This document shows positions 30,041-40,113 of a stretch of 64,000 nt of DNA, piece after piece. The position numbers were made by a program, and so were the translations under genes. The notes beneath the pieces were generated by a model. The model did no database searches. It saw only the letters and a program-made list of their open reading frames with translations, and was not told where the DNA came from. The DNA lies in the IMG/VR virus record IMGVR_UViG_3300047496_000204, positions 10,764-74,763 of that record. One strand, written 5' to 3'. The DNA comes from a virus. Each line of letters begins with the position of its first letter. Position 1 is the first letter of the stretch.

Positions 30041-30116
30041 TGGCAGAACTATCGAGACTCGAACTCGAAACTTAAGATTCGTAATCCTAGATGATAATCC
30101 ATTTCACCATAGCTCT
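30041..30116 (-). tRNA. tRNA-Arg(ACG)
   Basis: TAGGA-TTACGAA-TCTTA, AGAGCTA/TAGTTCT, G-CCA. Confidence 0.8.
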
Positions 30117-30228
30117 ACGAAACACACTTTTCTCAGAACCTTCCCCAAAAACTGCCGGGGAAGGCTTTGATTAAAACAACTTCCCCGCTGGCGACGGAAG
30201 AAGCCTTGATTCACGATGTAAAACAGAC

Positions 30229-30273
30229 AAAGAAAAACCCCGGATAAGCTTTTTTGAAAGCTCTTCCGGGGTT
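30229..30273 (-). terminator. Intrinsic terminator between leader 1 and the minus tRNA array
   Basis: AACCCCGGA...TCCGGGGTT followed by TTTCTTT on the minus strand. Confidence 0.85.
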
Positions 30274-30303
30274 GGTGTAAAATCCAACTATGTTAGGGTA
30301 AGT

Positions 30304-30396
30304 TTACCCCACGGTTGGCACACGACTCCCCGAAAACCCGAGCCACTTAAGGCGCAGGCTTTTCAAGCGGAGAGATATGCTTAACCGAGAGAACAT
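30304..30396 (-). CDS. Leader peptide 1, MFSRLSISLRLKSLRLKWLGFSGSRVPTVG (putative attenuator)
   Basis: AGGA SD 12 nt upstream, directly after the promoter, followed by the terminator; translated by hand. Confidence 0.7.
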   Translation of the reverse strand: MFSRLSISLRLKSLRLKWLGFSGSRVPTVG

Positions 30397-30456
30397 AATT
30401 AGTTTAATTCCTATATCTGTGATGCTAACGCGGGATGCGCTCGCTGTCTTGAAACC

Positions 30457-30487
30457 TATTTATCTCACAACGCTAAACCGGTGTCAA
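30457..30487 (-). promoter_or_regulatory. Promoter of the minus tRNA array, TTGACA-N17-GATAAATA
   Basis: Shares TTGTGAGATAAATAGGTT with the promoter at 35254. Confidence 0.8.
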
Positions 30488-35253: not shown

Positions 35254-35284
35254 TTGACAGGCTTTCGAGCTTGTGAGATAAATA
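35254..35284 (+). promoter_or_regulatory. Promoter of the plus tRNA array, TTGACA-N17-GATAAATA
   Basis: Same architecture as 30457-30487. Confidence 0.8.
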
Positions 35285-35337
35285 GGTTATCGGCTCATTC
35301 CGAGCCCCAACAGTTTTAAAAAGGACTTCCAACTTCA

Positions 35338-35475
35338 ATGTCTCGTTCCATTTCCATCGCAGCTTCTTTCGGCCAGGGCTTTACCGCCTTCGGCGCGATG
35401 ACCGCCGCCGTGGTCATTGGCGTCACAGGGATGATTGGATTCCAGAATCAACCCCCAAAAAAGGCTTCATCATGA
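35338..35475 (+). CDS. Leader peptide 2, MSRSISIAASFGQGFTAFGAMTAAVVIGVTGMIGFQNQPPKKASS (putative attenuator)
   Basis: AAGGA SD 12 nt upstream; stop codon lies in the antiterminator 5' arm; translated by hand. Confidence 0.72.
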   Translation: MSRSISIAASFGQGFTAFGAMTAAVVIGVTGMIGFQNQPPKKASS

Positions 35476-35535
35476 GTTAAAAACGCCAAACAGCGTCCTC
35501 TGATGAAGCCCCTAAGATTTCTTAGGGGCTTTTTT
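35463..35535 (+). terminator. Overlapping antiterminator (35463-35472 with 35501-35510) and terminator (35506-35535)
   Basis: GGCTTCATCA/TGATGAAGCC; AAGCCCCTAAG-ATTT-CTTAGGGGCTT followed by a U tract. Confidence 0.85.
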
Positions 35536-35570
35536 ATTGGATTGGTCGCATTTAAATACCTTATAACATA

Positions 35571-35660
35571 CAGGATGTAGCTCAGTCTGGCCGGAGCAGC
35601 GGTTTTGGAAACCGAAGGCGTGAAACGATTTCGTAGGTTCAAATCCTACCATCCTGACCA
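35571..35660 (+). tRNA. tRNA-Pro(TGG) with an enlarged variable region
   Basis: C1-G72, A73, CGGT-TTTGGAA-ACCG, CCA. Confidence 0.8.
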
Positions 35661-35729
35661 ATTTCTACCGAATGGAAATGTTCTTTATTTTTCATTCAGT
35701 TCTTTGACATCGTTAGAATATTTTAGTTG

Positions 35730-35848
35730 TATCTGGAAGCAATTCCAGGTATGGTTAATTTCTATCGTCAATTACGAATGGTTGCCCTAGTGGTATCCGA
35801 CAGTAATTGACGATAGAAATTAACTGTATCTGAGATTGCTTCCAGATA
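35730..35848 (+). repeat. 46-bp imperfect inverted repeat (long hairpin)
   Basis: Most substitutions retain G-U pairing on the plus strand. Confidence 0.85.
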
Positions 35849-35855
35849 TAAAATT

Positions 35856-36326
35856 CTAACTCTCTAAAGTGTTGGCAGGTGGCACATCCGGTTTGGGGCC
35901 GGGGGGCGCAGATTCGAATTCTGCTGGGGAGACCAAGTTTATTATAAAGTCTATAATAGATTGTAGAGACCCAAATCTCAAATCTATTTTATATTTTACG
36001 GAATCCATTTTTTCTTTACTTCTTTCAATGACTCTGTCATTTTTTGGATCAAGATATACGTTATATTTTGGTAAATAAAAGTCAGGGAAATAATTTCGCG
36101 GTTTTCCAGTAGAGTCAACCCAAGGTATAGGAATGGGTCGTGTCCAAACAATACCCAATTCATCAAGTTTTTCTGCAACTTTAACTTCCCAACTTGATTG
36201 TAAATTCACCGATTTATTCATATTTTTACAAAAATACGGAATAGACATGCATTTACCCCATTTATGTGTGATTGCAGATGCGGCGCATGATGCAGAACTT
36301 TTTATGCGTTTTCCATTGCAATTCAA
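35856..36326 (-). CDS. PD-(D/E)xK (TnsA-like) endonuclease domain
   Basis: YFPDFYLPKYNVYLDPK; probably one split gene together with 36323..36703. Confidence 0.7.
   Translation of the reverse strand: MNCNGKRIKSSASCAASAITHKWGKCMSIPYFCKNMNKSVNLQSSWEVKVAEKLDELGIVWTRPIPIPWVDSTGKPRNYFPDFYLPKYNVYLDPKNDRVIERSKEKMDSVKYKIDLRFGSLQSIIDFIINLVSPAEFESAPPGPKPDVPPANTLES
35860..35935 (+). tRNA. tRNA-Pro(TGG)
   Basis: CTCTCTA/TGGGGAG, TCCGG-TTTGGGG-CCGGG, CCA; antisense to the end of the endonuclease ORF. Confidence 0.75.
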
Positions 36327-36703: not shown

Positions 36704-36808
36704 CTTCTATTTAGTCAGAAAAGACGGTTTCGAACCGACTATTTTGCGGACTTGATAAAATAAATATATTGACAAAATATCTTGATTTGGATAGCATATA
36801 TAAACTAT

Positions 36809-36881
36809 GCGGGATTGGTATATTGTTTGTGCCTCACCCTTCCAAGGTGATGAAATCAGTTAGATTCTGATATCCCGCTCC
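36809..36881 (+). tRNA. tRNA-Gly(TCC), atypical T loop
   Basis: GCGGGAT/ATCCCGC, U73, TCACC-CTTCCAA-GGTGA. Confidence 0.75.
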
Positions 36882-37048: not shown

Positions 37049-37236
37049 GTATAACCAGACGTCCTATGGTTATACATTTTCTACAGTAGAACGCACTCAA
37101 CTTCCACGATCCTAGACTGAACCGTGATTGACGGTGGAGAACTTGGTAGAAGTGTGAAAACCGGGTCAAATGGCGTAATCGCAAGATAGGCGTATATTGA
37201 CTTTGGGGCTCTGGGTGCGTTTTACTGTAGAAAATG
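37049..37236 (+). ncRNA. Unassigned structured RNA closed by a 25-bp stem
   Basis: 37075-37099 pairs with 37212-37236; upstream hairpin at 37049-37075. Confidence 0.5.
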
Positions 37237-37245
37237 ACGATCTAT

Positions 37246-37317
37246 ATGGACATAGCATTGTGGAATGCGGCGGCTCGCAAAGTTGCTTAACATGGTTCGA
37301 CTCCTTGTGTCCCTACC
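37246..37317 (+). tRNA. Degenerate tRNA-Cys(GCA)-like gene
   Basis: GCGGC-TCGCAAA-GTTGC, T arm; C33, A73 and an acceptor mismatch. Confidence 0.5.
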
Positions 37318-39408: not shown

Positions 39409-39918
39409 ATGGGCACAAGATCGGATATTATCGTTGAACATGCTGATGGCAAGTTCAAGAGAATTTACTGTCATTGGGATGGATATCTGGAAGGTGTTGG
39501 TCAAACACTTTTTTCTCATTACAATAGTCAAGAGCGCGCTGAAGCGGTAGTTGCGCCGGGTGATATGTCATCCTTGGCAGAAAGATGTGATGGGGAGCCT
39601 GGACATTCCTTCGATAATAACGTCAAGGGTCAAACCGTGTATTATGGTCGGGATCGTGGCGAAACAGAAATGGACGGCGTAGTTGGTGATACACTCGTTT
39701 CTGTTTGGCCGTCAGAGGGCACTTGGACGGAATTCACTTATGTTTGGACACAAGGTCGCTGGTGGGTCGCAGATGCCGATGAAGGTTCACAAGCCCTTCA
39801 TAGTCTGGAAGATGCCTTGAAGGGCGATGATCGTCCTACACCCTTGCCTTGGGTGATCCCGAGTAGGGACCGAGGACCGGGATCGAGGCCCGGCTTGTCC
39901 ACCAAAATAATATATTGA
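39409..39918 (+). CDS. IYCHWDGY-type protein, paralog 2
   Basis: Similar to 34538..34966; upstream TTGACA. Confidence 0.75.
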   Translation: MGTRSDIIVEHADGKFKRIYCHWDGYLEGVGQTLFSHYNSQERAEAVVAPGDMSSLAERCDGEPGHSFDNNVKGQTVYYGRDRGETEMDGVVGDTLVSVWPSEGTWTEFTYVWTQGRWWVADADEGSQALHSLEDALKGDDRPTPLPWVIPSRDRGPGSRPGLSTKIIY

Positions 39919-40037
39919 CTATTTCTCAAATAGTTAGTAAATACATATATGATATTAGTTGTGTTTCTTATCGTCAGTATAGCAGTCGGCCTTTCGGGGG
40001 CTGTTATGAGACGATGTAGGAAACATTTCTAATAAAT

Positions 40038-40113
40038 GGCCCTTTCGCCAAATGGGAAGGCATCGCTTTTACACGGCGACATTGAGTTGGTTCGATTCCA
40101 ACAAGGGCTACCA
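40038..40113 (+). tRNA. tRNA-Val(TAC)
   Basis: TCGCT-TTTACAC-GGCGA, CCA. Confidence 0.85.

What the first reader, a model, noticed from the sequence alone, without database searches (positions are those of the whole stretch)
35254..35535. Leader-peptide attenuator 2: a complementary leader matching the plus-strand tRNA array, with a clear antiterminator
Seen: the promoter shares 18 nt (TTGTGAGATAAATAGGTT), the N17 spacing and the 12-nt SD spacing with attenuator 1. The 45-codon leader has no Leu, Trp or ATA, and 36 of 45 codons are Ala, Gly, Ile (ATT/ATC), Phe, Met, Thr, Val, Gln, Pro or Asn, the amino acids of the downstream tRNAs. Its last codons (GGCTTCATCA) are the reverse complement of TGATGAAGCC, which overlaps the 5' arm of an 11-bp terminator. 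A ribosome reaching the stop would block the antiterminator; one stalled earlier would allow readthrough. Caveats: the match is at amino-acid level (some GGC/GCC codons need anticodons not seen here), Ser is in both leaders with no clear tRNA-Ser in either array, and the peptide is hydrophobic enough to be a small membrane protein. Neither leader contains Asp, Glu, His, Tyr or Cys, which predicts a third leader and array elsewhere in the genome. The two leaders together suggest a partitioned tRNA-pool surveillance system.
Basis: partly seen in the sequence, partly recalled or inferred. Interest (0 to 1): 0.95.

Follow-up and report, generated by a model that had tools for sequence, protein, structure and literature searches.

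The report
Leader-ORF gate before phage tRNA genes

Summary
These are the promoter core shared with unit 1, the 12-nt SD spacing, a 45-codon ORF without Leu, Trp or ATA, a 10-bp hairpin over the last codons, and an 11-12-bp terminator 35 nt before tRNA-Pro.

- **For an attenuator:**
  - 35 of 44 codons encode amino acids of the plus-strand tRNA set. That is the top 0.08% of small ORFs, and P=0.005 against composition-preserving shuffles.
  - The terminator is the only strong plus-strand one in 24 kb.
  - The promoter geometry TTGACA-N12-TGTGAGA recurs in Caulobacter phage CcrColossus. I checked that there it occurs only before leader ORF, terminator and tRNA-array modules whose codons mirror the arrays.
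- **Against:**
  - The "clear antiterminator" competes for only 5 basal terminator pairs (P=0.04 against shuffles).
  - The codon-level match is 24/44.
  - The plus-strand tRNAs are scattered over 12.5 kb, with their own promoter-like sites and opposite-strand genes between them.
  - The peptide also looks like a membrane helix.
  - The only relative found is a 296-nt metagenome contig, which does not settle the question.

**Verdict:** probably (about 0.55) a ribosome-mediated attenuator of a class I found in no paper. Earlier AI notes from this scan report the class on other phages, including Caulobacter phages, and I re-checked it on two of them.

The parts
35254..35288 (+). Promoter: TTGACA, 12 nt, then TGTGAGA-TAAAT. 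The 18-nt core at 35271-35288 is shared with unit 1. A-rich sequence lies upstream.
   Evidence: the core occurs only twice in 134.5 kb; the geometry TTGACA-N12-TGTGAGA occurs exactly at units 1 and 2 here, and exactly at the two leader-bearing tRNA modules in the CcrColossus locus; 35264-35286 is unchanged in the related pond-metagenome contig.
35292..35306 (+). 5'-terminal stem-loop of the transcript (5 bp, 5-nt loop)
   Evidence: One search gives the fold; in the relative, seven changes in or beside it still give a 5-bp stem with a 5-nt loop, so the changes are compensatory.
35322..35325 (+). Shine-Dalgarno-like AGGA, 12 nt before the start codon
   Evidence: Unit 1 has the same 12-nt spacing. 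The region 35320-35340 has one change in the relative, against about 20% divergence further upstream. Where an SD was found before long ORFs of the contig, the spacing was 6-9 nt, so this one is unusually long.
35338..35475 (+). Leader ORF of 45 codons plus stop. GC 0.55 and GC3 0.60 in a genome of 0.37 GC.
   Evidence: The frame, start and stop are kept in the relative despite 10 substitutions. These give 6 residue changes and 1 silent change, and no indel. There is no homologue among 5.8 billion or 1.84 billion proteins, and no Pfam or PHROG hit.
35463..35510 (+). Hairpin A, the candidate antiterminator: a 10-bp perfect stem (35463-35472 with 35501-35510) around a 28-nt loop with small inner stems. 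Its 5' arm is the last three codons.
   Evidence: I4.: -21.4 kcal/mol alone, and it forms first during transcription. It is invariant in the relative. On the minus strand it is followed by T6 and reads as a terminator.
35506..35538 (+). Intrinsic terminator: 11-12-bp stem (6 G-C pairs), short loop, T6-A-TT tail
   Evidence: -19.4 kcal/mol. It is the strongest plus-strand terminator-like site between 28 and 52 kb. In the relative the stem is invariant and the loop changes TT to AA.
35571..35660 (+). tRNA-Pro(UGG), the first plus-strand tRNA, 35 nt after the terminator tail
   Evidence: 56 bits. No usable -35/-10 pair fits in 35536-35570 (read).
30228..30487 (-). Companion unit 1: the same promoter, a 30-codon ORF (30396-30304) and a terminator (30271-30238 plus a T-run). 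The ten-tRNA cluster Arg, Trp, His, Leu and Lys begins at 30116.
   Evidence: All 14 of its Leu, Lys, Arg, Trp and ATA codons are readable by minus-strand tRNAs, and 11 of 12 species are sampled (P=0.008). UUUUCGGGG in codons 21-23 pairs with the terminator's 5' arm.

Best explanation
Unit 2 is a promoter-proximal, ribosome-mediated transcription attenuator that gates read-through from a strong early promoter into the plus-strand tRNA region.

**Shown:**
- The order of the signals.
- An intact, RBS-preceded 45-codon ORF.
- A 10-bp hairpin whose 5' arm is the last three codons and whose 3' arm takes the five basal pairs of a strong terminator.
- No promoter between the terminator and tRNA-Pro.
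- No other strong plus-strand terminator for many kilobases.

**Inferred mechanism:**
- A ribosome that reaches the stop codon covers 35463-35472. Hairpin A then cannot form, the full terminator forms and transcription stops.
- A ribosome held up earlier, at codons up to about 37, leaves hairpin A free to form first. This weakens the base of the terminator and lets RNA polymerase run into the tRNA genes.
- The ORF is built mostly from the amino acids of the plus-strand tRNA set, so slow decoding of those codons would raise tRNA output.
- The switch is probably partial, a few-fold, because the two folds are nearly iso-energetic.
- It may act as a broad sensor of decoding speed rather than a codon-exact sensor.
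For: - **Build:** the architecture comes. The twin unit 1 has the same promoter core and SD spacing and sits at the head of the oppositely oriented tRNA region.
- **Promoter class:**
  - TTGACA-N12-TGTGAGA occurs only at these two units in 134.5 kb.
  - In a 24-kb CcrColossus locus it occurs only at two modules of leader ORF, terminator and tRNA array.
- **CcrColossus and Domovoi leaders mirror their arrays:**
  - In CcrColossus leader 3, 12 of 13 consecutive codons match the Val, Ile, Gln, Asn and Arg array, and every species is sampled.
  - CcrColossus leader 2 is 76% own-set.
  - The Domovoi homologue has fewer Arg codons, and its array lacks tRNA-Arg.
- **Composition of this leader:** L2 is 80% own-set and 7% other-set. 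That is the top 0.08% of small ORFs. It gives P=0.005, or joint P=0.0025, against composition-preserving shuffles, comparable to the CcrColossus controls. It samples 12 of 13 plus-strand species and 3 of 12 minus-strand species (joint P=0.001).
- **Relative:** the RBS, frame, start and stop are kept, while the first nine codons change freely.
- **Folding:** hairpin A is predicted to form before the terminator's 3' arm is made.
Against: - **Weak switch:** the antiterminator overlaps only 5 nt of the terminator arm. The final minimum-energy fold keeps a 10-bp terminator. Complementarity is barely above shuffles (P=0.04, or 0.32 for the arm alone). There is no anti-antiterminator, so untranslated RNA would default to read-through.
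- **Codon level:** the match is 24/44 (P about 0.06). GGC x4, GCC x3, GCT x2, ACA and CCC are not read by the listed anticodons. The six Ser codons have no tRNA.
- **Codon usage:** GC3 is 0.60 against 0.31 for phage genes. The codons are therefore not the A/U-ending ones that most of the phage's U34 tRNAs read.
- **Scattered array:** many plus-strand tRNAs have their own TTGAC[AT] promoter-like sites, and minus-strand genes lie between them.
- **Pro codons:** codons 39-40 lie too close to hairpin A for a stall there to favour read-through.
- **Other readings fit:** the peptide scores as a membrane helix. Hairpin A can also be read as a minus-strand terminator.
- **Data gaps:** no RNA data exist. 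Only one short relative was found, and it is invariant in the two hairpin stems, so there is no covariation test.
Confidence: 0.55

Rival explanations
1. Unit 2 is a self-contained early gene cassette (promoter, gene, terminator, in the manner of a 'moron'). It makes a 45-residue single-pass membrane peptide. The terminator simply ends that gene, and tRNA-Pro is made from whatever leaks through.
For: - It has a complete set of expression signals and a strong terminator.
- Residues 17-35 have a mean Kyte-Doolittle hydropathy of 1.85, followed by a basic tail.
- GC of 0.55 is in the top 1% of 135-nt windows of a 0.37 GC genome.
- Residues 10-40 are nearly unchanged in the relative.
- A second small hydrophobic ORF with a basic tail (39949-40032) also sits before a tRNA.
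- In a peat-metagenome relative, the 14 nt before tRNA-Pro differ, so cassette and tRNA need not be linked.
- Hairpin A can be explained as a minus-strand terminator.
Against: - It does not explain why two unrelated small ORFs share a special promoter and each head one of the two tRNA regions.
- It does not explain why that promoter geometry marks leader modules in CcrColossus.
- A hydrophobic look follows automatically from a peptide built of A, G, I, F, M, V and T.
- A membrane helix without any Leu is unusual. Only 2.4% of 45-residue windows lack Leu.
- There is no homologue in 1.84 billion representative proteins.
- Substitutions in the relative are 6 replacements to 1 silent change, mostly at codon position 2.
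- The SD spacing of 12 nt is poor for a highly expressed gene.
Confidence: 0.2
2. The unit is a leader whose terminator is overcome by something other than the ribosome, such as a phage or host antitermination factor or an RNA element acting on RNA polymerase. Alternatively, it makes a small regulatory RNA. In either case the ORF is incidental.
For: - It is GC-rich and folds well (z = -3.8).
- It has a conserved 5' hairpin with compensatory changes.
- The 3' 190 nt are almost invariant at the nucleotide level in the relative, including silent sites.
- Replacement changes dominate in the ORF.
Against: - There is no Rfam match, including T-box.
- The one change inside the strongest internal hairpin (35399) breaks a pair without compensation.
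- The frame is kept with no indel in the ORF, while the 5' UTR has two indels.
- The RBS region is conserved.
- The composition match to the tRNA set would be a coincidence (P=0.0025-0.005).
- The invariance extends to loops and to sequence after the terminator. That fits recent exchange of the block as well as selection.
Confidence: 0.12
3. There is no regulatory link. A constitutive leaky terminator stands behind a strong promoter, and the composition match and the hairpin overlap arose by chance.
For: The antiterminator statistics are weak. The codon-level match is modest. The hypothesis was formed after looking at the sequence.
Against: There is joint evidence from two units and from the CcrColossus and Domovoi modules with the same promoter geometry.
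Confidence: 0.1

Closest known systems
Multivalent leader-peptide transcription attenuators of enterobacterial amino-acid operons (ilvGMEDA leader sensing Ile, Val and Leu; thr leader sensing Thr and Ile; also trpL, hisL, leuL, pheL). From established knowledge.
   Same: Both have a promoter-proximal short translated ORF, an intrinsic terminator before the regulated genes, and an alternative hairpin that competes with the terminator. In both, the ORF is enriched in codons cognate to what is regulated and reads several amino acids at once.
   Different: - The regulated genes are tRNA genes of a phage, not biosynthetic enzymes.
- About ten amino acids are represented instead of one to three.
- There are no tandem runs of one codon.
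- There is no 1:2 anti-antiterminator or pause hairpin.
- The antiterminator takes only the five basal pairs of the terminator.
Leader ORF, terminator and tRNA-array modules of Caulobacter phage CcrColossus and Brevundimonas phage Domovoi (Dolichocephalovirinae). They are not annotated as such in the records. I read them here from L006 and L005, and earlier AI notes of this scan report them.
   Same: Both have the TTGACA-N12-TGTGAGA promoter geometry, a leader of 30-45 codons built from the amino acids of the tRNAs behind it, a strong terminator, then tRNAs. The codon-level match is similarly imperfect: CcrColossus leader 2 is 22/38 by my count, and L2 is 24/44.
   Different: - There is no sequence similarity between the leaders.
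- In CcrColossus leader 3, a 10-nt near-copy of the terminator's 3' arm lies inside the ORF right after the regulatory codons. Here only GGCTT is copied, and it lies at the very end of the ORF.
- The CcrColossus arrays are compact, with 9-11 tRNAs in about 1 kb. Here only two tRNA-Pro follow directly, and the rest are spread over 12.5 kb with inserted genes.
- This phage is AT-rich (37% GC).
Phage 'morons': a promoter, gene and terminator cassette whose base composition differs from its surroundings. From established knowledge of lambdoid phages.
   Same: It is flanked by a sigma-70-type promoter and a factor-independent terminator, and it is a GC island in AT-rich DNA.
   Different: Unit 2 is paired with a second unit carrying the same promoter. 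Both stand directly before co-oriented tRNA genes that lack a promoter of their own. The peptide has no homologues.

Membership tests
Ribosome-mediated leader-peptide transcription attenuators | Short ORF with a ribosome-binding site close behind the promoter | tested here: met
   AGGA is at 35322-35325 and the ORF is 35338-35475. The RBS, frame, start and stop are kept in the relative. The SD spacing of 12 nt is long.
Ribosome-mediated leader-peptide transcription attenuators | Intrinsic terminator between the leader ORF and the regulated genes, with no promoter in between | tested here: met
   The terminator is 35506-35538. tRNA-Pro starts at 35571. The 35-nt gap holds no usable -35/-10 pair.
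Ribosome-mediated leader-peptide transcription attenuators | Antiterminator structure that is mutually exclusive with the terminator and is masked by a ribosome finishing the ORF | tested here: inconclusive
   A 10-bp hairpin has its 5' arm on the last three codons. It overlaps 5 nt of the terminator arm. Energies are -21.4 against -19.4 kcal/mol, and the two states are -27.3 against -29.2. P=0.04 against shuffles. It is invariant in the only relative, so covariation cannot be tested.
Ribosome-mediated leader-peptide transcription attenuators | Leader enriched in codons cognate to the regulated function | tested here: met
   At amino-acid level 35/44 codons match (P=0.005, joint P=0.0025; top 0.08% of small ORFs). 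At codon level only 24/44 match (P about 0.06).
Ribosome-mediated leader-peptide transcription attenuators | Anti-antiterminator or pause hairpin (1:2) that gives termination when the leader is not translated | tested here: not met
   In whole-transcript folds, 35463-35472 pairs only with 35501-35510. No upstream partner was found.
Ribosome-mediated leader-peptide transcription attenuators | Read-through responds to translation of the leader and to supply of the cognate charged tRNA | not testable with these tools
   No RNA run holds the stretch. This needs reporters or Term-seq.
Phage tRNA-array leader modules (CcrColossus and Domovoi type) | Promoter of geometry TTGACA-N12-TGTGAGA | tested here: met
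   the motif is present at units 1 and 2 only in this contig, and at the two leader modules only in L006.
Phage tRNA-array leader modules (CcrColossus and Domovoi type) | Leader composition mirrors its own tRNA set better than another set | tested here: met
   L2 is 0.80 own against 0.07 other. CcrColossus leader 2 is 0.76 against 0.03, and leader 3 is 0.47 against 0.17.
Phage tRNA-array leader modules (CcrColossus and Domovoi type) | Compact tRNA array directly behind the terminator as a single unit | tested here: not met
   Only two tRNA-Pro genes follow directly. Other plus-strand tRNAs lie 1.3-12.5 kb away, behind minus-strand ORFs and TTGAC[AT] promoter-like sites. No strong plus-strand terminator intervenes.
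Phage tRNA-array leader modules (CcrColossus and Domovoi type) | Sequence homology of leader or terminator to the Caulobacter-phage modules | tested here: not met
   There is no DNA or protein match of unit 2 to any phage record. Only the tRNAs match alphaproteobacterial phages.
Autonomous small membrane-protein gene (moron-like cassette) | Peptide sequence under purifying selection, with homologues elsewhere | tested here: inconclusive
   There are six replacements and one silent change against the relative, but residues 10-40 have only one change. No homologue was found in 5.8 billion or 1.84 billion proteins. The best Atlas hit is 0.87, below the useful level.
Known structured RNA families (T-box, other Rfam leaders) | Match to a curated covariance model | tested here: not met
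   only tRNA hits appear in 20-50 kb at E up to 1.

The most novel reading that the evidence does not exclude
The phage runs a partitioned tRNA-pool surveillance. Two co-regulated leaders divide the amino acids between them. Leu, Lys, Arg, Trp and Ile-AUA belong to the minus-strand array. Ala, Gly, Ile, Phe, Met, Thr, Val, Gln, Pro and Asn belong to the plus-strand region. Each opens its own tRNA transcription domain only when ribosomes slow down on that subset. One such case would be a host anticodon nuclease or starvation depleting those tRNAs. This would be a feedback loop in which a tRNA gene set is controlled by the decoding speed of its own codons.
Probability: 0.3. Interest if true: 0.9.

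Novelty: new variant of a known kind. Interest (0 to 1): 0.7.

Why it matters
Leader-peptide attenuation is textbook control for amino-acid biosynthesis and some synthetase genes. I found no paper that describes it for tRNA genes or for phage tRNA arrays.

If real, it would explain how giant phages time and dose their tRNA supply. It would link phage tRNAs to the state of the host's decoding machinery, including defence by tRNA cleavage. It would also give a simple sequence signature (promoter, matched mini-ORF, terminator) for annotating tRNA operons in phage genomes.

This locus adds an AT-rich, uncultured moss-metagenome phage to the Caulobacter-type examples. It shows the module surviving while the array behind it was broken up by inserted genes.

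Tried and rejected
- **Relatives of unit 2:**
  - Near and distant DNA searches and a protein search of the phage collection found nothing.
  - The promoter core and a back-translated peptide pattern found nothing in viral contigs.
  - The peptide pattern in metagenome contigs gave two chance hits inside GC-rich bacterial genes with no tRNAs nearby.
  - Neighbouring proteins found no related viral loci.
- **Peptide homology:** there was nothing in 5.8 billion or 1.84 billion proteins apart from itself and two low-complexity hits at E of about 1e-4. Pfam, PHROGs and the Atlas gave nothing.
- **RNA families:** there were no Rfam hits except tRNAs.
- **Expression data:** no RNA run holds the stretch.
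- **A mistake of mine:**
- In one search my first constrained fold used hairpin coordinates shifted by one base and gave a meaningless energy.
  - The ribosome-footprint line printed carries the same one-base shift. The report uses the 35463-35472 arm.
- **Near-copy of the terminator arm:** I considered the near-copy of the 3' arm inside the ORF (35373-35382) as the antiterminator. I rejected it because it is at chance level (-11.4 kcal/mol, P=0.32).
- **Synonymous-site conservation:** I considered using it against the relative to choose between peptide and RNA constraint. I rejected it because there are too few changes, and the invariance also covers loops and post-terminator sequence. That fits recent exchange of the block.
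- **Scattered array:** midway I leaned towards an autonomous cassette because the plus-strand tRNAs have their own promoter-like sites. I revised this after finding the shared promoter geometry and matched leaders in CcrColossus and Domovoi.
Full report
**Where it lies.** The window is part of a 134.5-kb IMG/VR virus contig. The contig has 37% GC and is estimated at 26% of a genome. It holds 29 tRNA genes by the default scan and 33 when inserts are allowed, all between 22.5 and 48.1 kb of the window. Runs from moss metagenomes hold the stretch. A structural protein is about 30% identical to proteins of jumbo phages. Individual tRNAs are most like those of phages of Caulobacter, Brevundimonas, Sphingobium and other alphaproteobacteria.

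**The observation.**
- TTGACA lies at 35254. Twelve bases later comes TGTGAGA-TAAAT. The 18-nt core at 35271-35288 is identical to 30470-30453 on the other strand and occurs nowhere else in the contig.
- A 5-bp hairpin stands at the predicted 5' end (35292-35306).
- AGGA lies 12 nt before the ATG at 35338, the same spacing as in unit 1.
- The ORF runs to the TGA at 35473-35475.
- A perfect 10-bp inverted repeat joins 35463-35472 (the last three codons) to 35501-35510.
- The terminator arms are 35506-35517 and 35520-35531, followed by T6-A-TT.
- tRNA-Pro begins at 35571, and the 35-nt gap has no room for a promoter.

**Is the composition match more than chance?**
- The plus-strand tRNAs are Pro x2, Gly-UCC x2, Cys, Ile-GAU, Met x2, Val x2, Asn, Phe, Gln x3, and with inserts Thr-GGU and Ala-UGC.
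- The minus-strand tRNAs are Arg, Trp, His, Leu x6, Lys x3, Ile-UAU and a few odd ones.
- Leaving out the start, 35 of 44 codons of the leader encode plus-set amino acids and 3 encode minus-set ones.
- Among 1277 ORFs of 25-70 codons in all six frames of the contig, this is the most extreme.
- Against shuffles that keep the base composition of each codon position, P=0.005 for the own set. Jointly with the low other-set count, P=0.0025. GC richness alone therefore does not produce the match.
- At codon level the match is weaker. 24 of 44 codons are readable by the listed anticodons (P about 0.06). 12 of 13 plus-strand species are sampled at least once against 3 of 12 minus-strand species (joint P=0.001 against stop-free windows of the contig).
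- Only 2.4% of 45-residue windows of long ORFs lack Leu.
- Unit 1 behaves in mirror image. All 14 of its Leu, Lys, Arg, Trp and ATA codons are readable by minus-strand tRNAs, and 11 of 12 species are sampled (P=0.008).

**The RNA switch.**
- Alone, hairpin A is worth -21.4 kcal/mol and the terminator -19.4. They share five nucleotides (AAGCC), which are the base of the terminator stem next to the U-tract.
- Folding growing transcripts shows hairpin A complete before the terminator's 3' arm exists. A state with full hairpin A plus a 6-bp remnant (-27.3) follows. The final minimum-energy state has a shortened hairpin A plus a 10-bp terminator (-29.2).
- The competition is therefore real but nearly balanced, so I expect a partial switch rather than an on/off switch.
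A ribosome at the stop codon covers 35463-35472, so the full terminator forms. A ribosome stalled before about codon 37 leaves hairpin A free.
- There are three weaknesses.
  - There is no anti-antiterminator, so untranslated RNA should default to read-through.
  - Against dinucleotide shuffles of the upstream sequence, the complementarity to the arm region is only P=0.04, and 0.32 if the arm alone is scored.
  - On the minus strand, hairpin A is followed by T6, so it can also be read as a terminator for the opposite direction.
- Unit 1 has its own alternative pairing. UUUUCGGGG in codons 21-23 pairs with the 5' arm of its terminator, and this forms transiently in growing transcripts.

**The one relative.**
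- A pond-metagenome run holds a 296-nt contig covering 35264-35553 with 21 substitutions and two indels. I rebuilt it.
- The promoter core is unchanged. The 5' UTR is about 20% diverged, yet it keeps a 5-bp hairpin with a 5-nt loop through compensatory changes. The stretch from the SD to the start has one change.
- The ORF keeps its frame, start and stop. It has six residue changes (R3S, S4A, I5T, A9E, M21T, K41I) and one silent change.
- From 35365 to 35553 there are only five changes, two of them in the terminator loop. Both hairpin stems are invariant, so they give no covariation test.
- The pattern supports translation, because the RBS and frame are kept and all indels lie in the UTR. It shows that the N-terminal residues are free to change.
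- It cannot separate peptide constraint from RNA constraint. The invariance also covers loops and post-terminator sequence, which fits recent exchange of the block.
- A second contig of that run covers the hairpins behind unit 1's terminator and then continues differently from tRNA-Arg.
- A peat run has tRNA-Pro at 99% identity but with a different 14 nt in front of it.

**What weakens the array-wide reading.**
- The plus-strand tRNAs are not a compact operon. TTGAC[AT] sites with plausible -10 elements stand 40-430 nt before tRNA-Gly 36809, Cys 37246, Gly-Ile-Met 37980, Met 39249, Val-Asn 40038, Ala, Gln-CUG and Val-GAC.
- Real minus-strand genes lie between them. One is an endonuclease-like gene at 35856-36326 (PHROG E=4e-12).
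- Only the two tRNA-Pro genes depend on unit 2 for certain. The two Pro codons (codons 39-40) lie so close to hairpin A that a stall there would favour termination.
- On the other hand, unit 2's terminator is by far the strongest plus-strand terminator-like site between 28 and 52 kb. A polymerase that passes it could therefore travel far.
- The leader's GC3 is 0.60, against 0.31 +/- 0.09 for long ORFs. Its codons are therefore not the A/U-ending ones that the phage's many U34 tRNAs serve best.

**What changed my reading.**
- Up to I rated an autonomous small-peptide cassette about as likely as an attenuator.
- A look-up of earlier notes of this scan reported codon-matched leaders in front of tRNA arrays in many phages, among them Caulobacter phages. 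Those are unchecked AI notes, so I tested the claim on loci I had already fetched for another reason.
- In the CcrColossus locus (L006), TTGACA-N12-TGTGAGA occurs exactly twice. This is the same geometry as units 1 and 2 here, where it also occurs exactly twice in 134.5 kb.
- Each CcrColossus copy is followed by a short ORF, a strong terminator and a tRNA array.
- One CcrColossus leader reads MMTYRNNVRQIRVRQFN... before an array of Val-GAC, Ile-GAU x2, Val-CAC, Gln-CUG, Gln-UUG, Asn and Arg-ACG x2.
  - Twelve of its thirteen consecutive codons are cognate, and every species is sampled.
  - A 10-nt near-copy of the terminator's 3' arm follows inside the ORF.
- The other leader is 76% S, T, L, A, P, K and H before an array of Pro, Lys, Leu, His, Ala and Ser.
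- The Domovoi homologue of the first leader has fewer Arg codons in the run, and its array has no tRNA-Arg.
- By the same shuffle test, the match of L2 here (P=0.0025) lies between the two CcrColossus leaders (0.02 and 0.00006).
- CcrColossus leader 2 also matches only 22 of 38 codons at codon level, so the imperfect codon match of L2 is normal for the class.
- A peptide assembled from A, G, I, F, M, V and T will look like a membrane helix whether or not it is one. That removes most of the force of the membrane-peptide rival.

**Verdict.**
- The most likely reading (about 0.55) is a ribosome-mediated attenuator. It belongs to a class of promoter, matched leader and terminator modules that head phage tRNA genes. 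Here it sits in an AT-rich uncultured phage whose plus-strand array has since been broken up by inserted genes with their own promoters.
- What is shown is the anatomy, the composition statistics and the shared promoter geometry with tested analogues. What is inferred is translation of the ORF, the direction of the switch and its signal.
- The rivals are an autonomous small membrane-peptide cassette (0.2), factor- or RNA-mediated control with an incidental ORF (0.12), and no regulation (0.1).
- I found no paper describing leader-peptide control of tRNA genes. Earlier AI notes of this scan report the pattern on other phage DNA.

Noticed in passing
window 35727-35775 and 35803-35851 (outer arms 35712-35725 and 35847-35860): A 49-nt inverted repeat (88% complementary) with 27 nt between the arms fills the space between the two tRNA-Pro(UGG) genes. 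It is conserved, with some changes, in the pond and peat metagenome contigs.
   Followed up: partly
window 35571-35660: tRNA-Pro(UGG) is 90 nt long and has a long extra arm, which is unusual for a Pro tRNA. In a peat-metagenome relative it is 99% identical, but the 14 nt in front of it differ.
   Followed up: no
window 36769-36809, 37197-37246, 39915-40038 and others listed: TTGAC[AT] promoter-like sites sit 40-430 nt before many plus-strand tRNA groups. The region therefore looks like several transcription units stacked behind the gated head promoter.
   Followed up: partly
window 39915-40037: TTGACT-N17-TAAATA is followed almost at once by a 27-codon hydrophobic ORF with a basic tail (39949-40032). 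The ORF ends 5 nt before tRNA-Val(UAC). It has no SD and no terminator, so the mRNA may be leaderless.
   Followed up: no
window 35453-35510, minus strand: Read on the minus strand, hairpin A is followed by TTTTTT. Together with the plus-strand terminator it forms an A-run, two hairpins and a T-run. This could stop transcription from both directions.
   Followed up: partly
window 30117-30233, minus strand: Between unit 1's terminator and tRNA-Arg lie two further G+C-rich hairpins with U-rich tails. This stretch is about 92% conserved in the pond-metagenome relative, whose contig then continues with sequence unlike tRNA-Arg.
   Followed up: partly
L006 17906-18100 and 10980-11240; L005 20490-20660: CcrColossus and Domovoi carry unannotated or mis-started leader ORFs with terminators before their tRNA arrays. 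The Domovoi record annotates the leader inside a 44-residue 'hypothetical protein'. The number of Arg codons in the leader falls where the array lacks tRNA-Arg.
   Followed up: partly
window 22-48 kb: The closest DNA matches of single tRNAs are to phages of Caulobacter, Brevundimonas, Sphingobium, Erythrobacter and Rhodobacter. Together with the shared promoter geometry, this hints at an alphaproteobacterial host for this 37% GC phage.
   Followed up: no
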